Virus record (IMG/VR): IMGVR_UViG_3300045988_117149
Strand: one strand, 5' to 3'
DNA: 64,000 nt
Source: a virus
Position numbers and translations under genes: made by a program. Shown one piece after another: positions 564 through 64,000 of this stretch. How positions within the stretch are numbered: position 1 is the stretch's first letter; the number at the start of each line of letters is the position of its first letter. The notes under the pieces were generated by a model. That model was not told the DNA's origin. It saw only the letters and a program-made list of their open reading frames with translations, and did no database searches.

Positions 564-1511
564 TTAAGCTTGATCAGGAATAACTCTAAGTCCTTCATCA
601 GCATTTACCCAATTTACTGTACCATCTCCTACTTGTATTTGAGCCTCTACTACTAAGATATATAAAATTCCAAAAAACCTACAGTCATAATGGATAGTAC
701 AGGTTAATTCATCAACACTGGTCGTTGCTGCTGAGGGGTAATTCGTAAACCATAGTTTCCAAGGAATAGGGTCTCCACTTAGATTTGGGATAGTACCATT
801 AACTGTTTCCCCAATCTTGGGTACTCTGAAGGGTCTAATAAACGTAGCTACCTCTTCTCCATTGATAGTGTACACTATGTAACCCCTAAAGGTAGCAGTC
901 TTCACAGCAGGATTATTTGCTACAGAGTGACCTAATCCTGCTACTGGTCTAATTTCATAAGTAACTACTCTAACACTTGGAGATTGAGTTATATTAATAG
1001 CTTTCTCGAATTTTTCACTTTGAATTATCTTGACTACTCCAGTTCTTTCAATTGGATTATAGGTACCCGACTGATACTCCCCATTTCTTGATAGAGTTTT
1101 AATAATAGCCTTTCCTGGTTTATTACCTTCGCCTACCTCTTGGGTTACTTCTAACCAGTCTACGGTAGTTTCGATTTTCCAATCTACAGCTCTATATTCA
1201 TCCTGAGGTACATTGTTGAGGAACTTTTGTTGATAGCTGTATACCTCTATCTCTAAAGTCTCACCCTTTTTAGTACCATCAAAGGTATGGGCAGTTACGT
1301 CTGGAGAAATACTCCAGTATGTATTCCAGGATTCTGCAGGGGTAGTGTTAGCTTTCTGAACCAAGGTTACTTCCCTTTCTACTCCCTGTACTACTACCTT
1401 GAGGATCTGTTCTTTGATATTATCTCGGTCTTCATTTATTGCCTTCGGTTTTACACGAATAGTGGCAGTACCTGTTCCGGATAATGCGGATATTTCAAAA
1501 TCTGCTGCCAT
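564..1511 (-). CDS. virion protein with BACON-like/Ig-like repeat ends (315 aa)
   Basis: Segments GTGTATIRVKP...REVTLVQKA and ERTGVVKIIQSEKFEKAINITQSPS follow the same R-x-x-x-[IVL]-x-[IVL]...[IV]-x-[IV]-x-Q ending as the other BACON-like genes here. TAATG overlap with the upstream gene at 1511. Confidence 0.5.
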   Translation of the reverse strand: MAADFEISALSGTGTATIRVKPKAINEDRDNIKEQILKVVVQGVEREVTLVQKANTTPAESWNTYWSISPDVTAHTFDGTKKGETLEIEVYSYQQKFLNNVPQDEYRAVDWKIETTVDWLEVTQEVGEGNKPGKAIIKTLSRNGEYQSGTYNPIERTGVVKIIQSEKFEKAINITQSPSVRVVTYEIRPVAGLGHSVANNPAVKTATFRGYIVYTINGEEVATFIRPFRVPKIGETVNGTIPNLSGDPIPWKLWFTNYPSAATTSVDELTCTIHYDCRFFGILYILVVEAQIQVGDGTVNWVNADEGLRVIPDQA

Positions 1512-2068
1512 TATTTTACCCTCCTTATTTCTTTTCTGATTTCATTTCGTATTTCCTTTTGTAAGGCTACCTTTCCACCTGCAGCCTTAAATGCAGGACC
1601 CCAGAGAGGACGAGGTGGTAAGTTACCATCTCTGCTACCATACTCGAGCATGATAGCAATCTGATTCAAAGTTTTTCTTGAAGTCTTACCTGTGTAGGTA
1701 ATCTTCCTGATTCCAATTGGTAATCCTACGAAAGTCCTCTTCTTACCTTTTACTATGGTAACGGACTTTGCATATTGACCAGTAAGGTTTAGCATTGTAT
1801 GTTCTCCATACTTCTTAATGGTACCTGGAGAATGTTTTGGCCAAGATACTCCAGAACCCTTTGGAGGTATACCAGTATTTAAACTACGCCTTACTATACG
1901 AAGAAGTTGATTGCCAAACTTCTCGGTACCTTTCGCATAGCCTTTTGTTAAGATACTTGGAGTCTGAGCAATCAACCTTTCTGCACGAGCTTGTTCTCGT
2001 TTATCTACGTATATTTCTAGTGGACCAATTGGAGTCGATATATTAATATTAACCGACTTACTTGGCAT
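1511..2068 (-). CDS. HK97 gp10-like head-tail completion protein
   Basis: C-terminal IAIMLEYGSRDGNLPPRPLWGPAF resembles the lEfGT..p.rPFl.PA signature of the HK97 gp10 family. Preferred ATG is 2068 (MPSKSVNINI), right after the stop of 2070..2591. The track start at 2104 overlaps the upstream gene. Confidence 0.45.
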   Translation of the reverse strand: MPSKSVNINISTPIGPLEIYVDKREQARAERLIAQTPSILTKGYAKGTEKFGNQLLRIVRRSLNTGIPPKGSGVSWPKHSPGTIKKYGEHTMLNLTGQYAKSVTIVKGKKRTFVGLPIGIRKITYTGKTSRKTLNQIAIMLEYGSRDGNLPPRPLWGPAFKAAGGKVALQKEIRNEIRKEIRRVK

Positions 2069-24364: not shown

Positions 24365-24660
24365 GATACTTTTTTGATAGAGATGGTAATTATGCTGGGT
24401 CATCAATGCAAGGGTGGGAGGTAATACTCCTACTCTGCCTCCCAGTTCTTATTGTATTATTCTTTGTATTCCTTCCCTTAATTATATTGCATAAATATGC
24501 CTCTAGAGAAGAAGATAAGAAATTCGAAGAAGAACATCCGCAAATATTAAAAGTAGATTCTTATATTACCGGCTGGTACCCTTGGCATAGATATTCCCTT
24601 GCATATACCATCTCCCTTGTATGTTGGGTAATTGCAATGCTAATGGCTTTGACTAATTAA
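24361..24660 (+). CDS. small membrane protein (99 aa)
   Basis: Two hydrophobic helices. Its stop overlaps the convergent gene 24653..25411 by 8 nt. Confidence 0.45.
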   Translation: MRYFFDRDGNYAGSSMQGWEVILLLCLPVLIVLFFVFLPLIILHKYASREEDKKFEEEHPQILKVDSYITGWYPWHRYSLAYTISLVCWVIAMLMALTN

Positions 24661-25411
24661 TCTTGATTCTAAGCATAACCCTTTTAACATATCCGTTTAT
24701 CTTATTGCCCAGTATAAGTTCTATAAGTATACCTCCGGAGAAATCTGAAGGAGAAAGGTTTCCTTTTTTAACGGTAATAGAACCATGACTATAGGAACCA
24801 GAGGGAGTCCAATCGGATGGGTCTACTGTATCTATCTTATAATTAATGGCTTGAGAATATTCTCTATCACAACCATAAAATAAACCTTGAGCATCATAGA
24901 GACTCATATTAAAATAGAAATCAGAATAAGGTACCAATTGACTACCTTTTAAGTAGAGCTCGAATATAGCAGTGGGTTCTGTATATGAACCATTATCAGA
25001 CCAAGGGACCTTAGTTACAGGTATAAGTAAATATTCATCTTGAGATGCAGGTAAGGTACCTGAAGTTACATATTGACCATTATAGTTTAAGATATAGGGT
25101 AAGTCTTTATATGTAGTTAGAGAGTTCTTATCATACCTACCCCATATTTCTACATACATTGGGATATCTACTGCCTTCTGAGTGATTGTGATAGTGATAA
25201 CTTTACCAGTAGTGGCTTGGGTAAGAGTGATAGTGGCTGCTCTACTTGAAGAACCTGAGTTTGCAGAAATGTCTACTTCTAAATTGTAAGATACTGCATC
25301 ATTTGATGTCTTCTTAGTAAAAACCCAAGCATTACTTGATGAGATTGGTGGGTCATATGTGATACTTGTAGTAAAGTCAATAATATCTGACTTAGATACT
25401 TTACCATTCAC
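24653..25411 (-). CDS. BACON-like paralog A, body of the gene; 5' end displaced by a C9 tract
   Basis: SGSSSRAATITLTQATTGKVITITITQKA repeat end. The track start is a GTG inside an open frame. The true ATG is probably 25536 (see the repeat feature and findings). Confidence 0.6.
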   Translation of the reverse strand: MNGKVSKSDIIDFTTSITYDPPISSSNAWVFTKKTSNDAVSYNLEVDISANSGSSSRAATITLTQATTGKVITITITQKAVDIPMYVEIWGRYDKNSLTTYKDLPYILNYNGQYVTSGTLPASQDEYLLIPVTKVPWSDNGSYTEPTAIFELYLKGSQLVPYSDFYFNMSLYDAQGLFYGCDREYSQAINYKIDTVDPSDWTPSGSYSHGSITVKKGNLSPSDFSGGILIELILGNKINGYVKRVMLRIKIN

Positions 25412-25512
25412 TACAGTATCTCTATATGAGTGAATGGTAAAGGTCTTTTTGGTTGCATCTGAAGGTACTGTTATTTCCTGAGATGCGGCTCTGGTACTAA
25501 ATACCAGATTTA

Positions 25513-25521
25513 GGGGGGGGG
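25513..25521 (-). repeat. homopolymer C9 (plus-strand G9) in codons 6-8 of the paralog A leader
   Basis: ATG 25536 GAA AAT TTA AAT CCC CCC CCC TAA. One extra C reads through into 24653..25411. Confidence 0.9.
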
Positions 25522-25545
25522 ATTTAAATTTTCCATATCTTTCTT

Positions 25546-26169
25546 TTAATATTGATACATGTCAATTCTGTTACTAGCTATAATGTCCCCATAACTAAAT
25601 CGTATATAAAACCATCCAAAATAAGTTCCGGAACTTCCTCCCTTAGTAGAGATTACCATAGAATCAGTACCTTGAGTTTGGTCTGAAGCTATGGAGAAAC
25701 CACCATTAAAGGGACTTTGTTGAGATATCTCAAAGGTATCAGTAGTTCCCATTCCTTCAGTTTCGATAGTACCATCAGAATAGATATCTGATTTGAAAAC
25801 CTCGAAAATCATTCTGGATATAGTTGAATCTACATGGGTTTCATAAGTTTCTGTGTTGGCATCATAGATATAGTTTCCATTATCCGGATTACCTACACAG
25901 AAATATTTAGTTGAGATTATATATCTCTGAGGAACCTGAGAGTAATTAAGGGTAATCCTCTTACCGGATGCAGGTTGGAGAAGTACTATCTTACCACTTC
26001 GAGTGGAAGAGGTATTATTAGCTGGTACTGTAATGGTTAATTGGGAAGGAACCTCAGAAGTCTTAATAGTACTACCTGAGGGTAAATTCTGAGATTCCAC
26101 TTTCCAATTAGCAGCATATTCTTGAGCTAAGTTACCATTGATGTACTTATAGGTAATAGATTCAACCAT
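25546..26169 (-). CDS. BACON-like paralog B, body of the gene; 5' end displaced by a G7 tract
   Basis: SSTRSGKIVLLQPASGKRITLNYSQVP repeat end. The upstream frame is open back to the tract. The likely true ATG is 26260. Confidence 0.6.
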   Translation of the reverse strand: MVESITYKYINGNLAQEYAANWKVESQNLPSGSTIKTSEVPSQLTITVPANNTSSTRSGKIVLLQPASGKRITLNYSQVPQRYIISTKYFCVGNPDNGNYIYDANTETYETHVDSTISRMIFEVFKSDIYSDGTIETEGMGTTDTFEISQQSPFNGGFSIASDQTQGTDSMVISTKGGSSGTYFGWFYIRFSYGDIIASNRIDMYQY

Positions 26170-26222
26170 TACTACGGTAGTTTCTCCTGCCCCTGCAAAA
26201 CTTAAATCAAGGGTGGTGACCT

Positions 26223-26229
26223 CCCCCCC
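26223..26229 (-). repeat. homopolymer G7 (plus-strand C7) in codons 11-13 of the paralog B leader
   Basis: ATG 26260 ...TTC CGT AGG GGG GGA GGT CAC CAC CCT TGA. One fewer G gives ...RRGEVTTLDLSFAGAGETTVVMVESITYKY in frame. Confidence 0.9.
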
Positions 26230-26271
26230 TACGGAATGATACTACATTTTTCTTTTCCATATCCTTGAAAT

Positions 26272-27243
26272 TTATAAAGTGATTATTTGGTCTGATGAAG
26301 GCAATAGGAAAGTAGACCTTAATTGCCAAGTTTGATTAGTAAATCTATAAGCTGATATACGATCACCTGGGTAAGCCATTTCAGTACTACCATTTTGTAA
26401 ATTTACTCTTACACCCTCAGATTTTTTATACTTATGGACTGAGGTATCATCTAATACAGCGAAATTAAAATAAGCTGTACCAGTACTACCAGTTTGAGGT
26501 GTTTGCCCCTCTTTGAAGAAAGCTCCTGAAAAAGTGTTCAGAGGCCAATTGATTGTAAGGGTGATATCCTGTTCCGCAGCTTTCTGCCATATAGTCACTT
26601 CTCTACGTTGGTCACCACAGGTTACTAAGAGTGTTCCGGACCTTTCTGAAGAACCCGAGTTTGCTGCAGTTGCTTTAACTATAATTTGGTACCAATTAGG
26701 TGCACCTGCCATAATAGACCCATCTTTAACTGTAACCTTAGTTGCCCAAGAAGGAGTTACTCCTACGGATGGTTGTTTGGCCATTACCTCTCCATCACTT
26801 CGAGTCATATAAGATTGAACCATAATCGTAGTAGTATTACCTATATTAGCTCCTATGGTAGCACTTACATTCAATACACCTAAGAAGTAGGTATAAGTGA
26901 AGTTGGGTTCTTGACTTATAGGGAAAGATATAGTTTGACCAGATTCTCTCTGCTTAAATACAAGAGTATGGGTTCTGGCAGAGGAACCTGTATTCTCTTG
27001 CAGGGTGGTAAAAGTTACTTTGCAATCATTGCCCTCAAAAGCATATTTCACGCTTACCCAAGAGGGGATGCTGGATTCCATATCCCAATCTACATTAGTC
27101 TTCTGCCCAGTACTCTTGCCATTAATGTACTTGGTCTTATAGGAGTAGATATAGGTAGTCTTGGTATCCCCAACATTCTGACCTATCTCAAAGACCGATG
27201 CCCTGGGTGCAGCATTGGCTACTCTAAAGTTAAATTCGTTCAT
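26272..27243 (-). CDS. BACON-like paralog C, intact (323 aa, two repeats)
   Basis: TGSSARTHTLVFKQRESGQTISFPISQEP and SGSSERSGTLLVTCGDQRREVTIWQKAAEQ. Normal ATG with no homopolymer. Confidence 0.65.
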   Translation of the reverse strand: MNEFNFRVANAAPRASVFEIGQNVGDTKTTYIYSYKTKYINGKSTGQKTNVDWDMESSIPSWVSVKYAFEGNDCKVTFTTLQENTGSSARTHTLVFKQRESGQTISFPISQEPNFTYTYFLGVLNVSATIGANIGNTTTIMVQSYMTRSDGEVMAKQPSVGVTPSWATKVTVKDGSIMAGAPNWYQIIVKATAANSGSSERSGTLLVTCGDQRREVTIWQKAAEQDITLTINWPLNTFSGAFFKEGQTPQTGSTGTAYFNFAVLDDTSVHKYKKSEGVRVNLQNGSTEMAYPGDRISAYRFTNQTWQLRSTFLLPSSDQIITL

Positions 27244-27343
27244 AATCTAATAAGTTTTATTGGTTTATAATTATTGCTCTCTTGATATTGTAGTCCTCTA
27301 CCCATGGGATGCCATGAGTTCTATATATTTATATAAATGCTAA

Positions 27344-27811
27344 ATGAATATGAGAAGTACAGATTACATAAGTAAGGGAACTGCAGTAGCAAGGCTATAT
27401 AAGGCAAGGGAATACCTATTAATGGATAAAGATTGTAGGAAGGGCTTATGCTTTTACCTAAGGTCAGTAGATATCCTGGATTACCTCGAAGAGATTGGGA
27501 TATGGAATTTAGATACCTTCAGTATAGAAGTTCTATGGGCCTATGAGGATTTTATAAATAGAAGTTGTATAGTGGCTATGGGAAATGTGAAAGTAGTGGA
27601 GAGAAAGTTGAATACCATGTATAGTTGGAAGGATAGCTTTGATGCTAGGAGTTCATCCAAAGAGATATGGGGAATAGCAAGGGATTCTATCCCTGAGATT
27701 TCTCAAAAGAATTTCTATTGGTGGGACCCAAATGATAGAGAGGTAAGGGTGAAGGCAATCGATTTATTAATTAATAAGGTAATGAAGTATGGTGAAGGAA
27801 AAGAAGATTAG
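27344..27811 (+). CDS. hypothetical W/Y-rich protein 1 of plus-strand cassette (155 aa)
   Basis: ORF-track ORF with a C-poor coding strand. Shares GLC..L and [FY]YW[WF].P....[VY]....[IL][DE][LI]L motifs with the next gene. Confidence 0.55.
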   Translation: MNMRSTDYISKGTAVARLYKAREYLLMDKDCRKGLCFYLRSVDILDYLEEIGIWNLDTFSIEVLWAYEDFINRSCIVAMGNVKVVERKLNTMYSWKDSFDARSSSKEIWGIARDSIPEISQKNFYWWDPNDREVRVKAIDLLINKVMKYGEGKED

Positions 27812-28154
27812 GAAAGTGTTCGAAGAAATATACCAAGAGCAGTTAGCTAAACATAGGAGAGGAGGAACAATACAGAATCTTTGTAGGGTAATTAAAACCC
27901 ATTGTGTTTTGAATGGGTATTCAACTTTATGGATAGAGATTCAGCAATGGTTTAAACCTGAAAGATATGGTTTAACGGAGTTATATTATACGATAGATGT
28001 TAATACCCCTACCCCGATTGAGATGATTCCTTATGAGGATAGAGATAGGTATTATTGGTTTCCTGTACATCAGGTATATAATTTGAAGAGATTGGAGATT
28101 CTTGAAATGGAGATAGATAATCAATTAAAGGAGGAAGGTTATGGTGAAGGTTGA
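27789..28154 (+). CDS. hypothetical W/Y-rich protein 2, paralog of protein 1 (121 aa)
   Basis: 23-nt overlap with the upstream gene. QNLCRVIK...RYYWFPVHQVYNLKRLEILE parallels KGLCFYLR...NFYWWDPNDREVRVKAIDLL. Confidence 0.55.
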   Translation: MVKEKKIRKVFEEIYQEQLAKHRRGGTIQNLCRVIKTHCVLNGYSTLWIEIQQWFKPERYGLTELYYTIDVNTPTPIEMIPYEDRDRYYWFPVHQVYNLKRLEILEMEIDNQLKEEGYGEG

Positions 28155-28404
28155 GACTTTGAAGGAAGATGGGTTTGTTAGAATCCTAAGATGTAGGGAA
28201 GGTAATAGGATTTGGTATCAGATGTGGCTTACCGATTTGGAGAAGGGTTGCATTGATAGATATTTCCTTGATATGGAAGTTAAGGCTTGGTGGTTGATTA
28301 ATCTTCAGAGATGGTATGTTTTCTTTTATGAGAAGAATGGTAGGAGAGTTAGGGGAGTATTGGGGAAAGATAGGACTAAGGATTTACTTAGGAGTATTTT
28401 GTAG
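28141..28404 (+). CDS. hypothetical W-rich protein 3 (87 aa)
   Basis: 14-nt overlap with the upstream gene. Last gene before the bidirectional terminator. Confidence 0.5.
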   Translation: MVKVETLKEDGFVRILRCREGNRIWYQMWLTDLEKGCIDRYFLDMEVKAWWLINLQRWYVFFYEKNGRRVRGVLGKDRTKDLLRSIL

Positions 28405-28560: not shown

Positions 28561-28586
28561 AGGGACAAACATTTTTATGTGTCCCT
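28561..28586. terminator. bidirectional intrinsic terminator between convergent units
   Basis: AGGGACA (28561..28567) / TGTCCCT (28580..28586). T-run TTGTTTTC follows on the plus strand and ACTTTTTATTTTT on the minus strand. Confidence 0.7.
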
Positions 28587-28593
28587 TTGTTTT

Positions 28594-28890
28594 CTAATTA
28601 TCTACTAAATGATTATTTAAATTTTCTTTAAATTGTTCATTTAAACAATAACATAAGTATAGTAAAAAAGTTTTAAAAGAAAATTTTTTATAAATTGTAT
28701 ATTCAACTTCTTTTAAATAGTTCATGCTTATTTGTTCAATCAATAGAAATTGCTCTGCATTAATTAATTGAAAAGTTTGCACGTCAATAATAGTAGATAT
28801 TATTCTATGATTTGACTTTAAAAGAATATAAACTACATATAAAGCACTAACAAAAACAGCTAATAAGATAACAAACAAGATTAATAACAT
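28594..28890 (-). CDS. small membrane protein in low-GC insert (98 aa)
   Basis: N-terminal MLLILFVILLAVFVSALYVVYILL helix. Extremely AT-rich codons compared with the rest of the window. Confidence 0.45.
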   Translation of the reverse strand: MLLILFVILLAVFVSALYVVYILLKSNHRIISTIIDVQTFQLINAEQFLLIEQISMNYLKEVEYTIYKKFSFKTFLLYLCYCLNEQFKENLNNHLVDN

Positions 28891-49772: not shown

Positions 49773-51485
49773 TTATAGTAATTGGTACCTACTAAGGCCG
49801 TTGGTTTTTTCCACTTGCAGGATTTTCGTATTACCAAGAGGAAGTGAGTCTAAATGAGTAATTAAGAATAGGGTTTTATCTTTGAATATATGTCTTATCA
49901 GGGAAGTTACAACCTCAACGTTATCTGAACTCAAAGATTCAAATACCTCATCTAAGAAAGCAAGATTTATACCTTTAGATGCAGTAAGAGCTTCATTCAT
50001 TGCAAAAGCCATTGCCACATTAACTAATTGTTTTTCTCCACCGCTAAGTTCATCATAATCAATGATTTGCCCATCTCTTTCAATAAGAGTAACAAATTCT
50101 TTTCTAGCAGTTCCTAAATCGATATTAAACTCTATCCTAAAACCTAATACCTCTGCATACTTATCCAAGCATTTGTTTAAGAACTCAAGTGATGAATCAA
50201 ATAAATATGCCTTGATTCCGTTATTTCCCAATGGGTCATTGATTAACCAATTGTAATTCTCTAACTCTGCTTCTTTGTTATGAAAGTCTTCATCAACCTT
50301 CCGTAAATTTTTCCTAATCTCTCTAAGCTTTTGTTTATACTTGGGAGACATGACTTTAAGTTTCTCTGCTTTGAGTTTAGATAAATCCTCATCAACAGTA
50401 GCAATGTCAGAAGCAATATCATCACATTCAGATTTTAGTTTCCTATACTTATCATTAACACTACTTAATTCCTCTAACCTCTCTAAAGCCTCTTGATACT
50501 CTTTATCATATTTGTCAAGGTCAGAGAATGCCTTATATATTGATTTAGCATCTCGCAATGCACGTTTGTAGTGGCCAGCTTCTAACTGTATTACTAACTC
50601 TTTAATTACCTTCTTAAGAGGTACATTAGATAAACTCTTAGCATCTTTTATCTTACCTCTTAAGTCCAAGATTACCTTATTCTGTTTCTTAATCTTTATC
50701 TGAATAGAAGCATCTACTTCATCCTTAATCTGTTTCTGTTTCTGTATAAGTAACGAAGTTAGCTTTTCTCTATCTTGCTTTAGTTCTCTCCGTTCTTCTT
50801 TTATACGTTTCTTAAAAGACTTTTCCCTGTCACGTAAATCAAAGTAAGCCTCTTTGTTAACCTCTAATTCCCTTTTAAGAATTTGAGATTGGTGTTCTAC
50901 CTCGTTTATCTGGGCAATTACATTATTCTTATCCTGCAATGCAATGCCTTTGGCAAGGTTTAAGAATTCTAAGTCAAATACTTCTTCGAATATCTTTTTC
51001 TTATCCGAATTAGATTCTTGTATAAGTCGTTTGATACCTTGTCCGAACATGATTGAATTCATGAACAGTGTATATGATAACCCTATTTCTCTATTTATTA
51101 CGTCCTGGATTTTACCTTTCCCTTTTACATCGATAGTATCACCATCCTTGATAATGATAAGCCTATCTTTCCCTTTAGACCCATCATCAAGTAAACCGTC
51201 ATACTTCTGACAACGTATTACTTTATATGTATGAGAATCTTTTTGAAAGTATACCTGGACTTTGGTACCTTGGTATTCTTTGGGTCTTATCTGTTTCCAG
51301 GTGTTTACCTCAGATACACCCTTTAGGTTTTTCCCATATATTGCCCATACCAATGCAGATAAGATAGTTGACTTACCTTTCCCATTTGGTGCCTTGATTA
51401 GCATGATACAAGTGGGGTTTAATTGTAAGTGTAGGGATTCTATTGAACAAAAACCCTCTACATCCATATTTAGGAATGTTAACAT
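49773..51485 (-). CDS. sbcC: SbcC/Rad50-like (T4 gp46-like) recombination ATPase
   Basis: Walker A APNGKGKSTIL, a long central coiled coil, signature LSGGEKQLV, and Walker B LAFLDEVF. Confidence 0.85.
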   Translation of the reverse strand: MLTFLNMDVEGFCSIESLHLQLNPTCIMLIKAPNGKGKSTILSALVWAIYGKNLKGVSEVNTWKQIRPKEYQGTKVQVYFQKDSHTYKVIRCQKYDGLLDDGSKGKDRLIIIKDGDTIDVKGKGKIQDVINREIGLSYTLFMNSIMFGQGIKRLIQESNSDKKKIFEEVFDLEFLNLAKGIALQDKNNVIAQINEVEHQSQILKRELEVNKEAYFDLRDREKSFKKRIKEERRELKQDREKLTSLLIQKQKQIKDEVDASIQIKIKKQNKVILDLRGKIKDAKSLSNVPLKKVIKELVIQLEAGHYKRALRDAKSIYKAFSDLDKYDKEYQEALERLEELSSVNDKYRKLKSECDDIASDIATVDEDLSKLKAEKLKVMSPKYKQKLREIRKNLRKVDEDFHNKEAELENYNWLINDPLGNNGIKAYLFDSSLEFLNKCLDKYAEVLGFRIEFNIDLGTARKEFVTLIERDGQIIDYDELSGGEKQLVNVAMAFAMNEALTASKGINLAFLDEVFESLSSDNVEVVTSLIRHIFKDKTLFLITHLDSLPLGNTKILQVEKTNGLSRYQLL

Positions 51486-52441
51486 GATTCAGCCTTTTTA
51501 AGTGTTTCGATTAATAGATTAGTTTTTACCTCATCTTTAATGCCTTTCTCTTTTAGGTATCTCTTTGCTAGAGTTTTCTTAGAAAGTTGCTTAGTAATCT
51601 TATGTTTGTTATTAACTGGAGTACTAGCTTTTTGAGGAATTATGGTATAATAATTGCCATCATCCTTGATATCTTCTTCGGATTCTACATCCTTGAATTT
51701 TGGGAAACCTTTCAGAGGTACAAACTCCATGGATAGGTCTTCATATATTTTCCAATACCCAAGTTTGCAATTCTTATCTGTTCTTCTCTGTTGGTTAGGA
51801 GCCCCAATCATATAAACCTTTTTCCCAAGCCTTTGAGGTTTATGTATATGTCCACATAATACCAAGTCAAACCTATTCAGGGTATTCAGATTTAGGTTCT
51901 CTACAGAATCTATTTCCCTACCATCGGTATCCTTTGCTCCCGGGTAATCCGTATGAAGAAGAAGTATATGCTTTTTACTCTTATCTAATTTGAGTTCTGA
52001 AAGATACTTACTTATTCCGATATTATTATCAATATATGGAACCCCATGCACTTCTATTTCTTTGTGATATCCGGATAGTATACGAGTAGTGTAGTCTATT
52101 ATCTCTATACCATATCTTTCTACTGTATACAACCAACTGTAGGGTGGATTACCCACTCTACTTACCTTCTTAATATCATGGTTGCCCGATATAGCATATA
52201 TCCAAAGACCTCCCAATTTATTGAGCTCATTATAAACTATCTCTGAAAGGTCTTGGTCCATAGTCTCTGCCTTATGAAATAGGTCTCCACAGAATAGAGC
52301 AGGACAATTGTACTCTTTACATACTTTCTGTATAATCGACAAAACCCTGAACGAATTCAGGGTCCTGTGGTTATTGTCATTGAACTTAGCCCAGAGATTT
52401 ATGTGTAAATCTGAGAAAGCTACTGCAATTACATCTTTCAT
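51479..52441 (-). CDS. sbcD: SbcD/Mre11-like (T4 gp47-like) nuclease
   Basis: Phosphoesterase motifs AFSDLH, GDLFH, GNHD, LLLHTD and CGHIH. ATG 52441 forms an ATGA overlap with the upstream stop, whereas the track start 52516 overlaps 79 nt. Confidence 0.8.
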   Translation of the reverse strand: MKDVIAVAFSDLHINLWAKFNDNNHRTLNSFRVLSIIQKVCKEYNCPALFCGDLFHKAETMDQDLSEIVYNELNKLGGLWIYAISGNHDIKKVSRVGNPPYSWLYTVERYGIEIIDYTTRILSGYHKEIEVHGVPYIDNNIGISKYLSELKLDKSKKHILLLHTDYPGAKDTDGREIDSVENLNLNTLNRFDLVLCGHIHKPQRLGKKVYMIGAPNQQRRTDKNCKLGYWKIYEDLSMEFVPLKGFPKFKDVESEEDIKDDGNYYTIIPQKASTPVNNKHKITKQLSKKTLAKRYLKEKGIKDEVKTNLLIETLKKAESC

Positions 52442-53019
52442 AATAAATGTCCTTTTATCTGACTGAGTCTGGTATTCAAATCCAATTGAGGTATAACCAA
52501 AGTTGGTATTTCCCAATCTGCAAGAAGTTCTCCCATCATTCCTGATATATGTACTTGATAATACCGATTAGTGATTCTTTTATGATTATCTTCCATATTC
52601 CAATCCTTATAAGTTGACATGCTTAATGGAAGGTATATTGCTAAGTCACATTGACTTCTCATAAGAGTTCCACATTTACAGAAAAAATCTTCTAATTCGC
52701 ATTCAGGGAGATGTCTATCTTGTTTATACCAAAAGTAAGCAGCTAAATCTGCATAACTACGGTCTGTAACAAATGTTTCCTTATCCCTGAACAATCTATT
52801 TCTCAAAGTTAACAGTTGATAATCTGATTGTTGTAAACTCTTCGAACCAAGAGATAATAACTCTGAGTGAGTTATATCTTTAGTAGCGGGGAGTAAATCA
52901 CTCATACTACCAGAGATAAAAGGAATCCCACAAATCTCTTCTACTGCTTTTGCCAATGTAGTTTTCCCTATACCTGAGGGACCTACAAACATTATTCGTT
53001 TTGGTTTAATCCATTCCAT
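52438..53019 (-). CDS. P-loop kinase, candidate dNMP kinase (193 aa)
   Basis: FVGPSGIGKTTLAKA Walker A, the size of small nucleotide kinases, and replication-module context. Confidence 0.45.
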   Translation of the reverse strand: MEWIKPKRIMFVGPSGIGKTTLAKAVEEICGIPFISGSMSDLLPATKDITHSELLSLGSKSLQQSDYQLLTLRNRLFRDKETFVTDRSYADLAAYFWYKQDRHLPECELEDFFCKCGTLMRSQCDLAIYLPLSMSTYKDWNMEDNHKRITNRYYQVHISGMMGELLADWEIPTLVIPQLDLNTRLSQIKGHLL

Positions 53020-53887
53020 CTTGTAATTCTTTAAAGGGTTTTATAAATTCATTTGTCAAGAATGATGCTAAAGAGTATTCGATACAAATAGCTTTGAACT
53101 TTTCGTATTTGAACTTCTTCTTTATTTTGATAGGTAACTTGTCAAGAGGATTATGACCCACAAAGTAGAATAGGTCAATCAATTGCCTATTTCTTTCCCA
53201 TATCTCTAAGTACTTTTCTCGATTACCCTCATCCTCTAAGAACTTATGTATAGTTCCCTCATCAAGTATCTTCCTTGCTTTTACTGGCCCAATACCTGGG
53301 AACCCTGGAATATCATCGGATGTATCCCCAACCATGGCAAGGTATGATACAGTTTCATGTGAATGATAACCAAATAGTTTTTTGCAATTCTCCATCCGAA
53401 TCATCTCGTCCTTCCTTGGGTTGTATATCCGAAGGTTATTACTTAGCAACTGGTTAAAATCCTTGTCTGATGATATAAGTATCATCTTATCGGATTGGAA
53501 TTTTTTAATTGCAAGGTATGCTAAGAAATCATCTCCTTCATATACTGTAGATTTTCTTTTATCGAATATATAATTAATTCTTAGCATACCCAATAACTTC
53601 ATGATAATTACCTTTTGACTTTGCAATGATTCGTAGTCTACAGATATATTCTTTCTGTGTCCCTTATAATTGGGTAACAGCTCCATTCTCAAAGGTGAAT
53701 GCCCATTATCGAATGATATATAAACATCATCTGGTTCAAACCTTGTAAGGTACATATGTAATGATTTAAAAAATCCGAATATTGCCCCACTGGGTTTACC
53801 ATCAGTACTCTTAAGTTTTTCGAACTTATGAAAGGATTGATGGAGAATATTCTCCCCATCAATCAATAATATTGTTTTCTTACTCAT
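53006..53887 (-). CDS. 5'-3' exonuclease / flap endonuclease (T4 RNase H / Pol I N-terminal family)
   Basis: ILLIDGENILHQSFH, PNYKGHR, EGDDFLA, ISSDKDFNQL, GDTSDDIPGFPGIGPVKARKIL. ATG 53887 (MSKKTILLIDG) is preferred. Confidence 0.8.
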   Translation of the reverse strand: MSKKTILLIDGENILHQSFHKFEKLKSTDGKPSGAIFGFFKSLHMYLTRFEPDDVYISFDNGHSPLRMELLPNYKGHRKNISVDYESLQSQKVIIMKLLGMLRINYIFDKRKSTVYEGDDFLAYLAIKKFQSDKMILISSDKDFNQLLSNNLRIYNPRKDEMIRMENCKKLFGYHSHETVSYLAMVGDTSDDIPGFPGIGPVKARKILDEGTIHKFLEDEGNREKYLEIWERNRQLIDLFYFVGHNPLDKLPIKIKKKFKYEKFKAICIEYSLASFLTNEFIKPFKELQDGMD

Positions 53888-55028
53888 CGTCTTCCTCCTC
53901 GTCTTCTGATTCATTAAATGATTCATATTCTACTCCATCTACTGGATAATAATTAGTAGTCAGAGCTTCTAACTTCTTTCTAGTAGTACCGATGGTATTA
54001 ATATCAGCTTTACGAAGTAACTTACGACGAAGGTCATCATCTTCCTCAAGAAGCTTTTGGAATTTCTCTTCTCCTCTTGCAAGGGTTTTACCTTTAAACT
54101 TATAAACCCCACCTGAGGATTTTTCGATAATGTCGTTCTCTACTAAGACGTCTTCGAGTCCGAAGCATCTATCAAAGCCGACTTCATGGAATTTAGGATT
54201 GAAGTATACCGGGCATTTAGAGATCGTTGGTCTTGGAGGAGCCACTTTATTCTTAATAAGTCGAATAGTAACGAGTTTGCCTGCTTTTCGTTCTTTACCT
54301 TTTTGCTTAACAGTAATGCTTCTACCAGAATAGAACGCAGCCCGGATTGAAGCATAAAACTTGAGTGCTGCTCCTCCAGTAGTGGTTGTATTATCTTTTC
54401 CAAATCCGACATTGAGTGCTGTTCTTAATTGGTTAATGTATATTTGACAAATTCCGAGTTTGTAGAAAAGTTCACTCCTGATACGGAAGTATTTATAAAG
54501 AGCCTTTGCTCTACCTCCCATCTCTGCTTTACCCTCTGCCATTTTAGCATCTATGTTATCTGCACAGTCCATAGCAGCAATAGAATCGATTACTAAGAGT
54601 ATCGGTTCATTATTAGTTAACTGAGAACGAAGGTATATTGCTAAGTCTGCTACTGCATCCGATACGTACTCTATACGGGTATCATTAATGCAAGTTACCT
54701 TAGTTGGGTCTACACCATTAATCTCTGCCCAGGAATTCATCCAAGATTGTTCGGCATCTACCCATATTACGTGTCCACCAAGTTGAATTGTAGAATATGC
54801 AAAGTTGTATGCAATAAGAGACTTACCTGAAGATTCTTCTCCAGCAATTTCAATGGATTTTCCCCAGGGTATGCCCCCTCCGAATAAATAGTTGAGAGCA
54901 AAGAATGTTGAAGGTAACCATAAACCTGTTTCCTTAGTTTCTGATGCTACCTTAATCATCCCACCATATTTTTTCAATATCTCATTTTTGGTTGGTACTT
55001 TTAAACCTACTTTTGTTTTCTTTGCCAT
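53880..55028 (-). CDS. recA: RecA/UvsX-like recombinase
   Basis: Walker A GEESSGKS, Walker B LLVIDSIAAM, and RecA-like loop regions. Confidence 0.8.
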   Translation of the reverse strand: MAKKTKVGLKVPTKNEILKKYGGMIKVASETKETGLWLPSTFFALNYLFGGGIPWGKSIEIAGEESSGKSLIAYNFAYSTIQLGGHVIWVDAEQSWMNSWAEINGVDPTKVTCINDTRIEYVSDAVADLAIYLRSQLTNNEPILLVIDSIAAMDCADNIDAKMAEGKAEMGGRAKALYKYFRIRSELFYKLGICQIYINQLRTALNVGFGKDNTTTTGGAALKFYASIRAAFYSGRSITVKQKGKERKAGKLVTIRLIKNKVAPPRPTISKCPVYFNPKFHEVGFDRCFGLEDVLVENDIIEKSSGGVYKFKGKTLARGEEKFQKLLEEDDDLRRKLLRKADINTIGTTRKKLEALTTNYYPVDGVEYESFNESEDEEEDDE

Positions 55029-57714: not shown

Positions 57715-57936
57715 TTATGTAGACATAGTATCCTCTTTCCTCAAGTTGGTAGTTGTTTTTGCTGAATCTGAATGCTTTAAGCTAATTTTACAATTTGGGC
57801 AATGTACTACTCTAAAGATACTATTGTCAGCAACATTATATACTCGTTCTGTTTCACTAGTATCATATTCAAATTCGCAATCACAGCAAGGACATTTAGC
57901 TCGCCATACCGTGGGCCCGTTCAAAATCTTTTTCAT
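57715..57936 (-). CDS. zinc-ribbon protein (73 aa)
   Basis: CPCCDC...HCPNC. Confidence 0.5.
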   Translation of the reverse strand: MKKILNGPTVWRAKCPCCDCEFEYDTSETERVYNVADNSIFRVVHCPNCKISLKHSDSAKTTTNLRKEDTMST

Positions 57937-60187
57937 ACTTCTTTATTTGTTTGTTAAACCTTTCCTTGAATTGCTTGGTGTGAATATGCTTATACTTCTT
58001 ATGTTCTTCCATATATTCCTCAACTGAGAAATCTGGTTGAAGCATCTTGTTATAATCATACCCAGGAATAAAGGGTAATTCCTCTGCCATTGACCTACCA
58101 ATAGTAAAGTCCATATCCATATCTACATCATCTACTTGGAAACCAAAGTATTTCTTTGTACTTGGATTACGTAGAATATTCCAGATAGTATATACTGTCC
58201 AGGTGTTTATATCTTGTGGCTTAGAATACATATAAACCGCATCATGAACTGTACAAGCTTCTTTCATCATGGGCAATTTGCCTTGTCTCATTAACCAGTA
58301 TACAAGAATTGCTCCAAAGTTTGTCATATTTGCTGCAGCACCCTGACATGGGAAATTCAAACCTAATCGGATAGCATAAGCAACTTCTTGTTTATCGTTA
58401 GAATATATCTGAGGTAATCTTCTCTTAGTTCCGAATAATTGGGTGTAATAACCATTCTTACGTAAGAACTTCTCTTGCTTCTCTTTGAACTTAAGTATCT
58501 TTGGGTGTTTCTTAAAGAATTCATCCATTTCCTTACGAGCTTCTTCTTTCGAAACTATAATACCAGCTTTTGGGTCAGATAATTTAACTGCTAGAAGAGC
58601 ATCACCAATACCATAGATAAGTCCAAAAGCAATTTGTTTAGCTTGCTTTCTCCTTACCTTCCATAACTTATGGTCTGGGTGTGATTCATCCTCATATATT
58701 TTAGAAGCTTCCTCAATGGGTACTCCATACTTTGCTGCTGCTATACCAAGGTGAGGATCTACTCCCTTGGCAAATGCTTCAAGATAAGTTTCATCACCAG
58801 ATAAGTGAGCCATCATTCTTAACTCTGCTTGGGAGTAGTCGAATGCCATGTATAAATATCCGGGAGGAGCAACTAATTGTTTTTTGATATTGGGGTCTAC
58901 AGATGTCTTTGGTATCTGCTGCATGTTTGGGTCTGCAGAACTAAACCTATTAGAGTCAGTACCATGTATATTATATCTACCATGTAATCGAGAGTCATCT
59001 TGTACTTTCTCCCACCATCCATAAATATAAGTCTTATACATTTTCTCTAACCCTCTAAGTTCCAATAACTTGTCAAGGAATATTGCTTTTGGTGATTCTG
59101 GGTTTTCTACCTTAAGCCTTAGATTAGTTAAAGTTTCCTCATCTGTACTTGGTTTACCAGATTCATTATCCTTGATTACCTCAAAATTAAACCCATGCTT
59201 TGAATACATAAGTGCAGGCAAATCAACTGGACTACCAAGGTTAATTGGTCTTATCAAATCCTGTTCCTTTTTAGTTGTGAATATACCTGCCTTGATATTA
59301 GATATCTTCTGTTCCCTTGATGCAATCTTTCGTTTGTCTTTTGGGTCATTATAATCTAACTCTTCAAGTTCTGCTTGGATAGCTTCTATATATTTATCAA
59401 TCTTAGCCTGGTTAAATCTCTTTTCGAATTTCTTAACTCTTGGCAAGTCGTATATTGCTTGTCTAGCAGCATCAATCTTTGGCTTATATTCTTCCAGAAG
59501 CTTTTTATTGAACTCGGTATCTACATATAATCCCTCTTTCTCTACAGAAGTAAGTACTCGAGAATTACACATAAATAAATTACGAAATACTGAATACATT
59601 CCCAAGTCAATTAACTTCTTCTCAAAGAATAGCATTAATCTCAAAGTATAATCTGTATCTTGACACCCATAATGGCAAAGTGGGTCTAATTCTTTTTTAT
59701 CCCAGGGTATCTTATCAAAAGCATCCTGCTTTTCATAATTACCATATTCTGGCAAATACCTTCTTACCATTGATTTTAGGTCATGTGGTTTTTCTTCATT
59801 GAGTACGTATTTTGCAAGCATACCATCTAAGCAAGTACCCCTATAGAATATTTTATACTTCTGATTTATCTGGTCATCAAATTTCCAGTTCCAGGCAACC
59901 TTAACTACATCGTAATTTTCGATTACCTCTTCCCCAAATTTCCTTAGCATCTTTTTCCAATTCCATCCTGGAGCAGTATATTCTTTAGTCTGAAAATGGT
60001 CTAAAGGTATAGAAGCACCAAATCCTGGCATCCAAGATACTGATAAGATTGTTGGTTTAAAAGATTTGTTGTATATGGGTTCTGCATTGGTTTCATAGTC
60101 ACAACAAGCATAACCCGTTGCTATACAACAAGCAATAAGTCGTTTGAGTTCTTTCTTGTTTCTTATTATCTTATATCTTGTCTCCAT
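57896..60187 (-). CDS. polA: family A DNA polymerase with 3'-5' exonuclease domain
   Basis: Exo I CCDYETNA, motif A DYSQAELRMMAHLSGDE, motif B RRKQAKQIAFGLIYG, motif C TVHDAVYM. ATG 60187 (METRYKII) is preferred over the hydrophobic track extension to 60232. Confidence 0.9.
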   Translation of the reverse strand: METRYKIIRNKKELKRLIACCIATGYACCDYETNAEPIYNKSFKPTILSVSWMPGFGASIPLDHFQTKEYTAPGWNWKKMLRKFGEEVIENYDVVKVAWNWKFDDQINQKYKIFYRGTCLDGMLAKYVLNEEKPHDLKSMVRRYLPEYGNYEKQDAFDKIPWDKKELDPLCHYGCQDTDYTLRLMLFFEKKLIDLGMYSVFRNLFMCNSRVLTSVEKEGLYVDTEFNKKLLEEYKPKIDAARQAIYDLPRVKKFEKRFNQAKIDKYIEAIQAELEELDYNDPKDKRKIASREQKISNIKAGIFTTKKEQDLIRPINLGSPVDLPALMYSKHGFNFEVIKDNESGKPSTDEETLTNLRLKVENPESPKAIFLDKLLELRGLEKMYKTYIYGWWEKVQDDSRLHGRYNIHGTDSNRFSSADPNMQQIPKTSVDPNIKKQLVAPPGYLYMAFDYSQAELRMMAHLSGDETYLEAFAKGVDPHLGIAAAKYGVPIEEASKIYEDESHPDHKLWKVRRKQAKQIAFGLIYGIGDALLAVKLSDPKAGIIVSKEEARKEMDEFFKKHPKILKFKEKQEKFLRKNGYYTQLFGTKRRLPQIYSNDKQEVAYAIRLGLNFPCQGAAANMTNFGAILVYWLMRQGKLPMMKEACTVHDAVYMYSKPQDINTWTVYTIWNILRNPSTKKYFGFQVDDVDMDMDFTIGRSMAEELPFIPGYDYNKMLQPDFSVEEYMEEHKKYKHIHTKQFKERFNKQIKKYEKDFERAHGMAS

Positions 60188-60241
60188 AATTATAAATAGA
60201 AAGAGGGACATACCTACCAGTAGCAGATACATCCCTCTTAA

Positions 60242-63875: not shown

Positions 63876-64000
63876 TCATCTATTTTTTTTTCGTTGATGT
63901 ATACACTATCGAACTGTTTACCATCTATCTGTAGATAAGAAAAGCCGATATTATTAATAAATAGTTCCCTGAGTTCCTCTAATTGTTGGTATGTACCATC
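63876..64000 (-). CDS. C-terminal end of a gene entering from the right edge
   Basis: Own translation of the minus strand: ...QQLEELRELFINNIGFSYLQIDGKQFDSVYINEKKNR, stop TGA at 63878..63876. Confidence 0.45.

What the first reader, a model, noticed from the sequence alone, without database searches (positions are those of the whole stretch)
25409..25536. A C9 tract separates a BACON-like gene from its start codon: candidate slipped-strand ON/OFF switch
Seen in the sequence: the minus-strand ATG at 25536 reads MENLNPPP and then hits TAA. The nine-C run (plus-strand G9, 25513..25521) forms codons 6-8. One extra C (or two fewer) joins this leader in frame to ORF 24653..25411. The product would be MENLNPPPLNLVFSTRAASQEITVPSDATKKTFTIHSYRDTVVNGKVSK... 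(about 294 aa). The ORF-track start is only a GTG inside that open frame. The restored N-terminus is collinear with the intact paralog 26272..27243 (...TKTTYIYSYKTKYINGK...), so the leader looks like real coding sequence. By eye I found no other G/C run of 7 or more in this AT-rich window apart from the sister tract at 26223. Inference: this is a hypermutable contingency tract that switches a virion-surface or glycan-binding protein on and off. Hypermutable poly-G tracts in receptor-binding genes are known from Campylobacter phages, but I am not aware of them in Bacteroidota phages. Alternatives are a homopolymer sequencing error, or transcriptional or ribosomal slippage.
Basis: partly seen in the sequence, partly recalled or inferred. 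Interest (0 to 1): 0.8.

Follow-up and report, generated by a model that had tools for sequence, protein, structure and literature searches.

The report
Two ON/OFF homopolymer switches, gut phage
A very common human-gut phage carries two neighbouring genes for BACON (Ig-like) surface-binding-type proteins, each interrupted near its start by a run of C or G whose length differs even between otherwise identical genomes, so the phage can switch each gene on or off by replication slippage, a trick so far documented mainly in Campylobacter phages.

Summary
It is half of a pair.

- **Gene A (24653..25536, minus):** its ATG is followed by a C9 tract and then TAA. C10 or C7 gives a 294-aa BACON-like protein.
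- **Gene B (25546..26260), directly upstream:** it has a G7 tract. G6 or G9 gives 237-238 aa.
- **Outliers:** no other G run exceeds 4 and no other C run exceeds 5 in the 64 kb.
- **Conservation:** in about 50 independent human-gut assemblies of this ~86-kb phage, nearly every copy of each gene carries its tract at the same position. A few genomes have lost gene B, and one orthologue has no tract.
- **Length variation:** the lengths vary (C7-C11, G7-G11, plus interrupted forms), and all four ON/OFF combinations occur.
- **Rate:** two assemblies with 0 SNPs across the 2.9-kb module differ at both tracts. Five A6/T6 runs never vary, and a T9 run is T9 in 8 of 9 genomes.
- **Leader:** the tract-free orthologue keeps the leader. 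The internal GTG start would remove four beta-strands.

Verdict: these are genuine slipped-strand contingency tracts, a new member of a known kind (Fletchervirus polyG; T-even contingency loci). Virion-surface or glycan-binding function is inferred only. Within-population switching needs raw reads.

The parts
25513..25521 (-). Tract A. This is C9 on the coding (minus) strand, codons 6-8 of gene A. The allele here is OFF; C10 or C7 would be ON.
   Evidence: In relatives the length is C7, C8, C9, C10 or C11, plus interrupted forms C3TC6, C5TC3, C3TC5, CTC9 and C3TC8.
25510..25536 (-). Leader ORF of gene A as it stands: ATG, MENLNPPP, then TAA.
   Evidence: The leader is retained and in frame in ON alleles and in the tract-free orthologue L056.
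24653..25536 (-). Gene A, full extent. With C10 it encodes a 294-aa BACON-like protein made of two tandem beta-sandwich domains. The listed ORF 24653..25411 (GTG start) is only its out-of-frame remainder.
   Evidence: Pfam BACON PF13004 scores 25.6 bits against a cutoff of 25. The model of the 98%-identical P0001 has pLDDT 70, with strands at residues 10-12, 19-24, 29-36 and 40-43 lying upstream of the GTG at residue 43. Full-length 294-aa calls are common in public data.
25490..25508 (-). Hairpin TCTGGTAT/TTA/GTACCAGA, 4 nt downstream of tract A. Its role is unknown. It may stimulate polymerase or ribosome slippage.
   Evidence: Energy is -9.2 kcal/mol with z -3.7 in a 35-nt context, but z is only -1.1 in an 81-nt context. 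It is kept in three lineage variants, with one compensatory pair.
26223..26229 (-). Tract B. This is G7 on the coding (minus) strand, within codons 11-13 of gene B. The allele here is OFF; G6 or G9 would be ON.
   Evidence: In relatives the length is G7-G11, plus interrupted forms G5AG3, G6AG5, G4AG6, G6AG3, G5AG2 and G6AG4.
26207..26260 (-). Leader ORF of gene B as it stands: ATG, MEKKNVVSFRRGGGHHP, then TGA.
25546..26260 (-). Gene B, full extent. It encodes a 237/238-aa BACON-like paralogue when in frame. The listed ORF 25546..26169 starts at an internal ATG.
   Evidence: Pfam BACON scores 20.6 bits, below the cutoff. ON alleles of 238 aa occur in L005, L006, L046 and L048. The C-terminal module is swapped after about residue 78 in other lineages.
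26211..26225 (-). Quasi-palindrome GGGAGGTCACCACCC that overlaps the 3' end of tract B.
   Evidence: Its exact reverse complement sits in front of a C tract in the hybrid leaders of L035 and L050, which lack gene B.
26272..27243 (-). Gene C. This is the intact 323-aa BACON paralogue without a tract, and the first gene of the three-gene minus-strand module.
   Evidence: Pfam BACON 6.7e-11, 42.5 bits. Its N-terminus is collinear with the restored A and B.

Best explanation
**What it is.** Genes A and B are two adjacent paralogues for BACON/Ig-like proteins in a highly prevalent, ~86-kb human-gut phage. The phage looks Flandersviridae-like and probably infects Bacteroidota. Each gene carries a G/C homopolymer a few codons after its ATG.

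**How it works (inferred).** During replication, the nascent and template strands misalign in the run and add or lose a base. The phage encodes its own family-A DNA polymerase. Each change moves the long ORF in or out of frame with the ATG.
- Gene A is ON at C7 or C10 and OFF at C8, C9 or C11.
- Gene B is ON at G6 or G9 and OFF at G7, G8, G10 or G11.
- The two switches act independently, so a phage population holds four genotypes.
- In this window both genes are OFF.

**What is shown.**
- The anatomy of both tracts.
- The frame logic.
- Conservation of the tracts across diverged lineages.
- Tract-length change far faster than base substitution.
- Downstream ORFs that stay intact in most OFF alleles (secondary lesions in L008, L017 and L037).
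- A leader that is real coding sequence.

**What is inferred.**
- Switching is reversible and frequent within a single population.
- The products are virion-exposed adhesins or receptor-binding accessories. If so, switching would diversify binding to mucus or epithelial glycans, or to the host cell surface.
For: - **Outlier tracts at the 5' ends of two tandem paralogues.**
- **Conserved position.** The tract sits at the same position in nearly every copy of each gene. The relatives were found through peptides downstream of the tract or through a neighbouring gene, so the sample is not biased toward tract-bearing genomes. These were 11 IMG/VR contigs, 19 metagenome contigs and 10 contigs found via the adjacent 99-aa gene. 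L050 and L052 lack gene B.
- **Allele spectrum.**
  - Tract B: G7 x14, G8 x4, G9 x8, G10 x15, G11 x2, plus 6 interrupted forms.
  - Tract A: C7 x1, C8 x6, C9 x13, C10 x11, C11 x1, plus 8 interrupted forms.
- **Joint states.** In 27 genomes not ascertained by state: ON/ON 2, B-ON/A-OFF 6, B-OFF/A-ON 8, OFF/OFF 11.
- **Rate.**
  - L041 and L044 have 0 SNPs in 2,901 nt but carry G8 vs G10 and C10 vs C9.
  - Of the 30 closest pairs (10 SNPs or fewer), 27 differ at one or both tracts.
- **Controls.**
  - Of 20 other homopolymer runs in the conserved 3.8 kb, none varies by indel, and five A6/T6 runs are invariant in 11 genomes.
  - Only three singleton 1-nt indels occur elsewhere.
  - The T9 run at 63883 is T9 in 8 of 9 genomes.
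- **Assembly independence.** The alleles come from SPAdes, MEGAHIT, Logan and other assemblies, including ~120x contigs.
- **The leader is coding.**
  - ON alleles read through it.
  - The tract-free orthologue L056 keeps it.
  - The modelled fold needs it.
- **ORF integrity.** Most OFF alleles are one or two bases from a full-length ORF, including a lineage only ~65% identical in protein.
- **Precedent.** Fletchervirus polyG tracts of 7-11 G in receptor-binding genes, and T-even contingency loci (PMC12633550).
Against: - No raw reads or experiments were available, so mixed tract lengths within one population and reversibility are not shown.
- The ON fractions (B about 30%, A about 37%) are close to the one-third expected if tract length drifts at random. 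Bulk data therefore show no selection for ON.
- A few genomes have secondary lesions in gene A or have lost gene B:
  - L037: +1 insertion in gene A.
  - L008: internal deletion in gene A.
  - L017: stop codon in gene A.
  - L035, L050, L052: gene B lost.

  The genes are therefore dispensable.
- There is no evidence that the proteins are in the virion. Genes A and B match no PHROG family.
- Illumina indel error is higher at G/C homopolymers than at the A/T controls, so a minority of the +/-1 differences could be consensus errors.
Confidence: 0.8

Rival explanations
1. **Sequencing or assembly artefact.** The true tract has one in-frame length everywhere, and the observed lengths are homopolymer errors.
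For: - G/C homopolymers of 9-11 nt are error-prone.
- Some supporting contigs have low coverage (L015, about 1x).
- No reads could be inspected.
Against: - Lengths span 5 classes and differ by up to 3-4 nt (G7 vs G10/G11) between near-identical genomes.
- The same alleles recur in many independent assemblies made with different assemblers, including ~120x contigs.
- A6/T6 and T9 controls are stable.
- Point-interrupted alleles (C5TC3, G5AG3 and others) are shared by several contigs.
- One lineage compensates a C9 tract with an extra A in the leader (L014).
Confidence: 0.04
2. **Programmed recoding.** The genes are decoded through the tract by -1 ribosomal frameshifting or transcriptional slippage, so 'OFF' alleles are in fact expressed and the tract is a recoding signal, not a genetic switch.
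For: - In the C9 allele the ribosome sits on CCC with TAA in the A site. A -1 slip re-pairs on CCC and enters the long ORF.
- A hairpin of about 8 bp lies 4 nt downstream and is kept in three lineage variants with one compensatory pair.
- C9 and the 9-nt interrupted alleles are the commonest class for gene A.
Against: - A recoding site should keep one fixed frame relation. Here all three frames occur at both tracts, and directly in-frame alleles make up 30-37%.
- C8 and G7/G10 alleles would need a +1 shift with no good re-pairing.
- The hairpin is not significant in wider context (z -1.1), and only 4 sequence variants are available.
- Tract B has no comparable downstream element.
Confidence: 0.07
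3. **Decaying accessory genes.** The tracts are merely mutational hot spots in dispensable genes that are drifting toward loss. There is no adaptive switching.
For: - ON fractions are about one third, the neutral expectation.
- Secondary lesions and loss of gene B occur in some genomes.
- No function has been demonstrated.
Against: - Both tracts are conserved in position across lineages whose proteins have diverged to 53-69% identity. Meanwhile the genome otherwise avoids G runs longer than 4 and C runs longer than 5.
- Most OFF alleles keep full-length ORFs, including in the ~65%-identical lineage.
- The family shows active module shuffling typical of genes under diversifying selection.
Confidence: 0.09

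Closest known systems
Hypermutable polyG tracts in Campylobacter Fletchervirus phages (Sorensen et al. 2021, Cell Rep 35:109214; as summarised in PMC12633550)
   Same: - G/C homopolymers of 7-11 nt lie inside phage genes.
- Length changes frameshift the gene and create subpopulations with different surface-recognition proteins.
- Several tracts per genome give combinatorial diversity.
   Different: - The phage group is unrelated (a Flandersviridae-like human-gut phage, probably of Bacteroidota), in an AT-rich genome with its own PolA.
- The targets are small BACON/Ig-like two-domain proteins with no detectable sequence relation to any annotated phage protein (no PHROG hit).
- Receptor-binding function is not shown here.
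- The evidence here is comparative metagenomics, not experiment.
Phage contingency loci in T2/T4 and other phages (Gomez, Barrick and Waters, bioRxiv 2025, PMC12633550)
   Same: The concept is the same: simple-sequence repeats in phage ORFs undergo reversible slippage frameshifts and act as bet-hedging.
   Different: - Those are mostly A/T runs of 6 or more, scattered through many genes, with low per-read mutation frequencies (~1e-4 to 1e-3).
- Here there are two long G/C tracts that are unique in the genome.
- They are placed at the 5' ends of two paralogues.
- Their different alleles are fixed as the assembly consensus in different samples.
Bacterial translational phase variation by homopolymer tracts at the 5' end of surface-protein or glycosyltransferase genes (Campylobacter, Neisseria, Haemophilus contingency loci; established knowledge, reviewed in PMC11868660)
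   Same: - A tract lies a few codons after the ATG.
- ON/OFF is set by frame.
- Alleles can be interrupted ('locked').
- Several loci switch independently.
   Different: - The tracts are carried by a virus.
- The polymerase is phage-encoded.
- The role of host mismatch repair is unknown.
BACON/Ig-like adhesins of crAss-like and Flandersviridae-related gut phages (Apjok et al. 2026, PMC13370021; Benler et al. 2021, PMC8008677)
   Same: - The same domain type (BACON PF13004).
- The same kind of phage: ~86 kb, human gut, very prevalent.
- Modular, shuffled architectures.
   Different: - Those papers do not mention homopolymers, frameshifts in these genes, or phase variation.
- No sequence match to A, B or C was found in their supplements.
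- It is not known whether A, B or C are among the tested adhesins.

Membership tests
Homopolymer contingency locus (slipped-strand phase variation) | A mononucleotide run of about 7 or more within, or just after, the start of a coding region | tested here: met
   C9 at codons 6-8 of gene A and G7 at codons 11-13 of gene B.
Homopolymer contingency locus (slipped-strand phase variation) | Changing the run length by +/-1 or 2 toggles between a full-length ORF and early termination | tested here: met
   In-silico frame tests on the window and about 50 relatives.
Homopolymer contingency locus (slipped-strand phase variation) | Tract length is polymorphic among close relatives far beyond the background mutation rate | tested here: met
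   A pair with 0 SNPs in 2,901 nt differs at both tracts, and 27 of the 30 closest pairs differ. Control runs are stable.
Homopolymer contingency locus (slipped-strand phase variation) | The downstream ORF is kept intact in OFF alleles, so the gene is not a pseudogene | tested here: met
   Most OFF alleles restore 209-239 aa (B) or 287-296 aa (A) with a single indel of one or two bases. There are three exceptions with secondary lesions.
Homopolymer contingency locus (slipped-strand phase variation) | High-frequency, reversible switching within a clonal population, with a phenotypic consequence | not testable with these tools
   This needs raw reads, plaque-purified lineages and phenotype assays.
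Fletchervirus-type phage polyG phase variation of receptor-binding proteins | The tract-bearing genes encode receptor-binding or tail-fibre proteins of the virion | tested here: inconclusive
   The proteins have a BACON/Ig-like tandem beta-sandwich fold, and B has a conserved N-terminus with a swapped C-terminal module, as receptor-binding proteins do. There is no PHROG hit and no virion evidence.
BACON domain (Pfam PF13004) | Score at or above the Pfam gathering threshold (25 bits) | tested here: met
   C scores 42.5 bits and A scores 25.6 bits. B scores 20.6 bits, below the cutoff on its own, but it is a clear paralogue by alignment.
Programmed -1 ribosomal frameshift site | A conserved slippery sequence with one fixed frame relation between the upstream and downstream ORFs | tested here: not met
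   All three frame relations occur at both tracts, and in-frame alleles are common.
Programmed -1 ribosomal frameshift site | A stimulatory RNA structure 5-9 nt downstream, supported by covariation | tested here: inconclusive
   A hairpin lies 4 nt after tract A (-9.2 kcal/mol). There is one compensatory pair among only 4 variants, and it is not significant in an 81-nt context.
Candidate family Flandersviridae (Benler et al. 2021) | A genome of about 86-87 kb from the human gut, with a structural block containing BACON genes and a replication module with PolA | tested here: met
   Relatives are 85-88 kb human-gut contigs. BACON genes and PolA are present.
Candidate family Flandersviridae (Benler et al. 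2021) | Placement inside the Flandersviridae clade on TerL/PolA phylogeny, with CRISPR-spacer links to Bacteroides or Parabacteroides | not tested
   No reference Flandersviridae sequence was available in the searchable collections. The nearest TerL in INPHARED belongs to unclassified gut phages at 74-88%.

The most novel reading that the evidence does not exclude
One of the most prevalent human-gut phage lineages may use two independent G/C-tract switches to phase-vary its own BACON/Ig-like surface adhesins. Every burst would then contain up to four virion types that differ in binding to mucus or epithelial glycans, or to phase-variable Bacteroidota capsules. This would be a phage-side mirror of the host's capsule phase variation.

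The C9 allele may also be a graded 'low' state, read by -1 frameshifting at CCC-TAA with help from the downstream hairpin. In that case tract length would set three expression levels instead of two.
Probability: 0.3. Interest if true: 0.8.

Novelty: new member of a known kind. Interest (0 to 1): 0.6.

Why it matters
- **New setting for a known mechanism.** Phase variation is a central theme for gut Bacteroidota, where capsule switching explains long-term coexistence with phages. Genetic switching on the phage side has so far been documented by experiment only for Campylobacter phages and, recently, T-even phages.
- **Prevalence.** This lineage is very common: the neighbouring 99-aa protein is indexed in 4,658 blocks of public assemblies.
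- **Target.** The switched genes belong to the BACON/Ig-like class that has just been shown to mediate epithelial and mucus adherence of related gut phages.
- **Possible consequence.** If the proteins are on the virion, the tracts would give a heritable, reversible way to vary adherence or host range within a single population.
- **Practical point for annotation.** Gene callers report truncated 252-aa and 207-aa proteins for OFF alleles. This splits one gene family into several apparent ones in protein catalogues.

Tried and rejected
- **Known phage genomes.** Megablast and blastn of the locus against INPHARED phages found nothing.
- **Exact look-up of gene C.** The protein is not on record.
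- **GTDB genome scan for a prophage or host.** No relative was found. Host assignment therefore rests on the BACON domain, the gut source and the resemblance to Flandersviridae.
- **Fold search.** The PDB and BFVD searches gave only generic tandem Ig-like/BACON matches, with no catalytic or named structural-protein homologue.
- **Literature supplements.**
  - The supplements of the adhesin paper contain no peptide from A, B or C.
  - The Flandersviridae supplement, truncated as stored, does not list the contigs found here.
- **Promoter and terminator scan.** The sigma-70/terminator scan of the module was at or below shuffle expectation and is not suited to Bacteroidota.
- **RNA structure around tract B.** Not significant.
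- **Rejected readings.**
  - A single assembly error.
  - A fixed programmed-frameshift site.
  - The internal GTG or ATG as the native start.
Full report
**1. The observation**

Read on the minus strand, the ATG at 25536 is followed by GAA AAT TTA AAT, nine C (plus-strand G9, 25513..25521) and TAA. This gives MENLNPPP and a stop. One more C, or two fewer, puts the ATG in frame with ORF 24653..25411 and yields a 294-aa (293-aa) protein. The GTG reported by the ORF list is an internal codon of that frame.

The gene immediately upstream has the same design. ATG 26260 is followed by ten codons, then G7 (plus-strand C7, 26223..26229), and a stop after 17 codons. One G fewer, or two more, joins it to ORF 25546..26169 and gives 237/238 aa.

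In the whole 64-kb window (36.8% G+C) the longest other G run is 4 and the longest other C run is 5. Run-length counts fall steeply (G3 341, G4 35, G5 0; C4 76, C5 4, C6 0). The two tracts are therefore extreme outliers, and both sit within the first 45 nt of two adjacent paralogues.

**2. Context**

The window is a tailed phage. Identified genes are:
- terminase, portal, protease and major head protein;
- a 2,056-aa tail-fibre-like protein;
- endolysin and a DNA methyltransferase;
- its own family-A DNA polymerase, a UvsX-like recombinase and SbcCD.

Genes C (26272..27243, intact, no tract), B and A form a three-gene minus-strand unit. Opposite-strand small genes bracket it on both sides.

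Pfam BACON (PF13004) matches C at 42.5 bits, A at 25.6 bits and B at 20.6 bits, against a cutoff of 25. A and B match no PHROG family.

A structure was modelled for P0001 (294 aa, 98% identical to restored A) using a 27-sequence alignment. It has two tandem beta-sandwich domains (mean pLDDT 70). Strands at residues 10-12, 19-24, 29-36 and 40-43 all lie upstream of the GTG at residue 43. Foldseek finds tandem Ig-like proteins in the PDB. In BFVD it finds a crAssphage ORF fragment and BACON 'binding domain' proteins of uncultured gut myoviruses.

**3. Relatives**

No INPHARED phage matches at the DNA level. The terminase is 74-88% identical to unclassified gut or faecal phages and about 35% identical to Flavobacterium phages.

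Relatives are abundant in human-gut assemblies, as contigs of 85-88 kb.
- The exact 207-aa B ORF is indexed in 417 blocks of the public collection.
- The neighbouring 99-aa protein is indexed in 4,658 blocks.

Size, habitat, BACON genes and PolA fit the candidate family Flandersviridae, described as infecting Bacteroides and Parabacteroides (PMC8008677). Clade membership was not tested. No relative was found in GTDB genomes, so there is no sign of a prophage form.

**4. The tracts in relatives**

The searches did not depend on the tract. They used peptides downstream of tract B or the neighbouring gene. They returned about 50 distinct contigs, and nearly every copy of each gene has its tract at the same position (L050 and L052 lack gene B). 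This holds even where the B protein is only 53-69% identical.

The lengths vary:

| Tract | Pure lengths (count) | Interrupted forms |
|---|---|---|
| B | G7 x14, G8 x4, G9 x8, G10 x15, G11 x2 | 6 (G5AG3, G6AG5, G4AG6, G6AG3, G5AG2, G6AG4) |
| A | C7 x1, C8 x6, C9 x13, C10 x11, C11 x1 | 8 (C3TC6, C5TC3 x3, C3TC5, CTC9, C3TC8, one other) |

One genome restores the frame of a C9 allele with an extra A in the leader (L014).

Among 27 genomes not selected by state, all four combinations occur:

| State | Genomes |
|---|---|
| ON/ON | 2 |
| B-ON / A-OFF | 6 |
| B-OFF / A-ON | 8 |
| OFF/OFF | 11 |

This is compatible with independent switching.

In the big protein collection, both full-length (294 aa) and truncated (252 aa) gene calls for A are common.

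**5. Rate and controls**

- Across the 2.9-kb C-B-A module, L041 and L044 have no substitution at all. Yet they carry G8 vs G10 and C10 vs C9.
- L041 and L045 differ by 2 SNPs and carry G8 vs G10 and C10 vs C8.
- Of the 30 closest pairs (10 SNPs or fewer), 27 differ at one or both tracts.
- In the conserved 3.8 kb, 20 other homopolymer runs were compared in 11 near-identical genomes. None varies by indel, and five A6/T6 runs are invariant.
- Elsewhere there are only three singleton 1-nt indels.
- The only other long run in the window, T9 at 63883..63891, is T9 in 8 of 9 genomes and T8 in one.
- The alleles come from several assemblers and include ~120x contigs.

This pattern is what a hypermutable tract gives. 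A general homopolymer sequencing error would not produce it.

**6. The leader is coding**

- ON alleles read through the leader.
- The restored N-termini of A and B are collinear with the tract-free paralogue C.
- One orthologue with no tract at all (L056; leader ATGGAAAAAGAACTGATACCCATTAAC..., MEKELIPINFNLSIRA...) is a full 293-aa gene starting at the upstream ATG.
- The fold model needs the leader-encoded strands.

**7. Mechanism**

Best supported is slipped-strand mispairing in the G/C runs during replication, giving heritable ON/OFF frameshifts in two genes independently. The anatomy, conservation, hypervariability and ORF integrity are shown. Reversibility within a population and the phenotype are inferred.

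The protein family is strongly mosaic:
- B leader fused to the A body;
- C N-terminus fused to the A C-terminal domain;
- B with a conserved N-terminal 78 residues and swapped C-terminal modules.

This pattern is usual for phage proteins that contact variable ligands. A recent study showed that BACON/Ig-like proteins from crAss-like and Flandersviridae-related phages confer epithelial and mucus adherence. It does not mention tracts or phase variation (PMC13370021). Whether A and B bind mucus glycans or the bacterial surface, and whether they are on the virion, is unknown.

**8. Rivals**

- **Pure artefact.** This is very unlikely, for the reasons in section 5.
- **Fixed programmed frameshift.** This is contradicted, because all three frame relations and many in-frame alleles occur. 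Leaky decoding of the C9 allele is still conceivable:
  - CCC-TAA is followed 4 nt later by a hairpin of about 8 bp (25490..25508, -9.2 kcal/mol);
  - the hairpin persists in three lineage variants with one compensatory pair;
  - this evidence is thin.
- **Neutral decay of dispensable genes.** This is the most serious caveat.
  - For: ON fractions (about 30% and 37%) are near the one third expected by chance. A few genomes carry secondary lesions or have lost B.
  - Against: the tracts are conserved across deep lineages in a genome that otherwise avoids G/C runs. Most OFF alleles keep intact ORFs. The family shows active modular evolution.

**9. Novelty**

The kind is known:
- Fletchervirus polyG tracts of 7-11 G in receptor-binding genes (Sorensen 2021);
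- polyG tracts noted in BPP-1 and PB1-like phages;
- contingency loci in T-even phages (PMC12633550).

Full-text searches found no report of such tracts in gut or Bacteroidota phages, or in BACON genes. I therefore rate this a new member of a known kind. The comparative evidence is unusually clear, and the host system is highly relevant.

Noticed in passing
window 25490..25508 (minus strand): Hairpin TCTGGTAT/TTA/GTACCAGA sits 4 nt after the C tract. It is kept in three lineage variants, with one compensatory T-A to C-G change. Together with CCC-TAA in the C9 allele, the geometry resembles a -1 frameshift stimulator.
   Followed up: partly
window 26211..26225; L035 and L050: Quasi-palindrome GGGAGGTCACC(A/T)CCC abuts the G tract. 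Two relatives that lack gene B carry its exact reverse complement (GGGAGGTGACCT) followed by a C tract, fused to the body of gene A. This suggests recombination or template switching at the palindrome and the tracts.
   Followed up: partly
proteins P0032, P0034, P0035, P0081-P0093; loci L008-L014, L019-L033: The BACON paralogue family is strongly mosaic. Some proteins join the B leader to the A body. Others join the C-type N-terminus to the A-type C-terminal domain. Gene B keeps its first ~78 residues but swaps the rest between lineages.
   Followed up: partly
L056 (logan:ERR13965686_44790) 789..1670: This is a tract-free orthologue of gene A. It has a different in-frame leader (MEKELIPINFNLSIRA...) and sits directly behind the upstream region that precedes gene C in the window.
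   Followed up: yes
window 27326..27335, 27502..28278 and about 28570..28730: Among near-identical relatives, L039 lacks 10 bp upstream of gene C and L040 lacks about 770 bp of the divergent small-gene block. In most relatives the segment around 28.6-28.7 kb is replaced by unrelated sequence, so this looks like a variable accessory islet.
   Followed up: no
window 25342 (L037); L008; L017: Gene A occasionally carries secondary lesions in relatives. L037 has a +1 insertion, L008 has an internal deletion leaving 97 aa, and L017 has a stop codon. This shows that gene A is dispensable.
   Followed up: partly
window 63883..63891: This T9 run is the only long A/T homopolymer in the window. It is T9 in 8 of 9 genomes and T8 in one relative (L059). 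Its genic context was not examined.
   Followed up: partly
window 49773..52516, 53880..55028, 57896..60232: The phage encodes SbcCD-like nuclease subunits, a UvsX-like recombinase and its own family-A DNA polymerase. These are the enzymes that would replicate the tracts and process their slippage intermediates.
   Followed up: no
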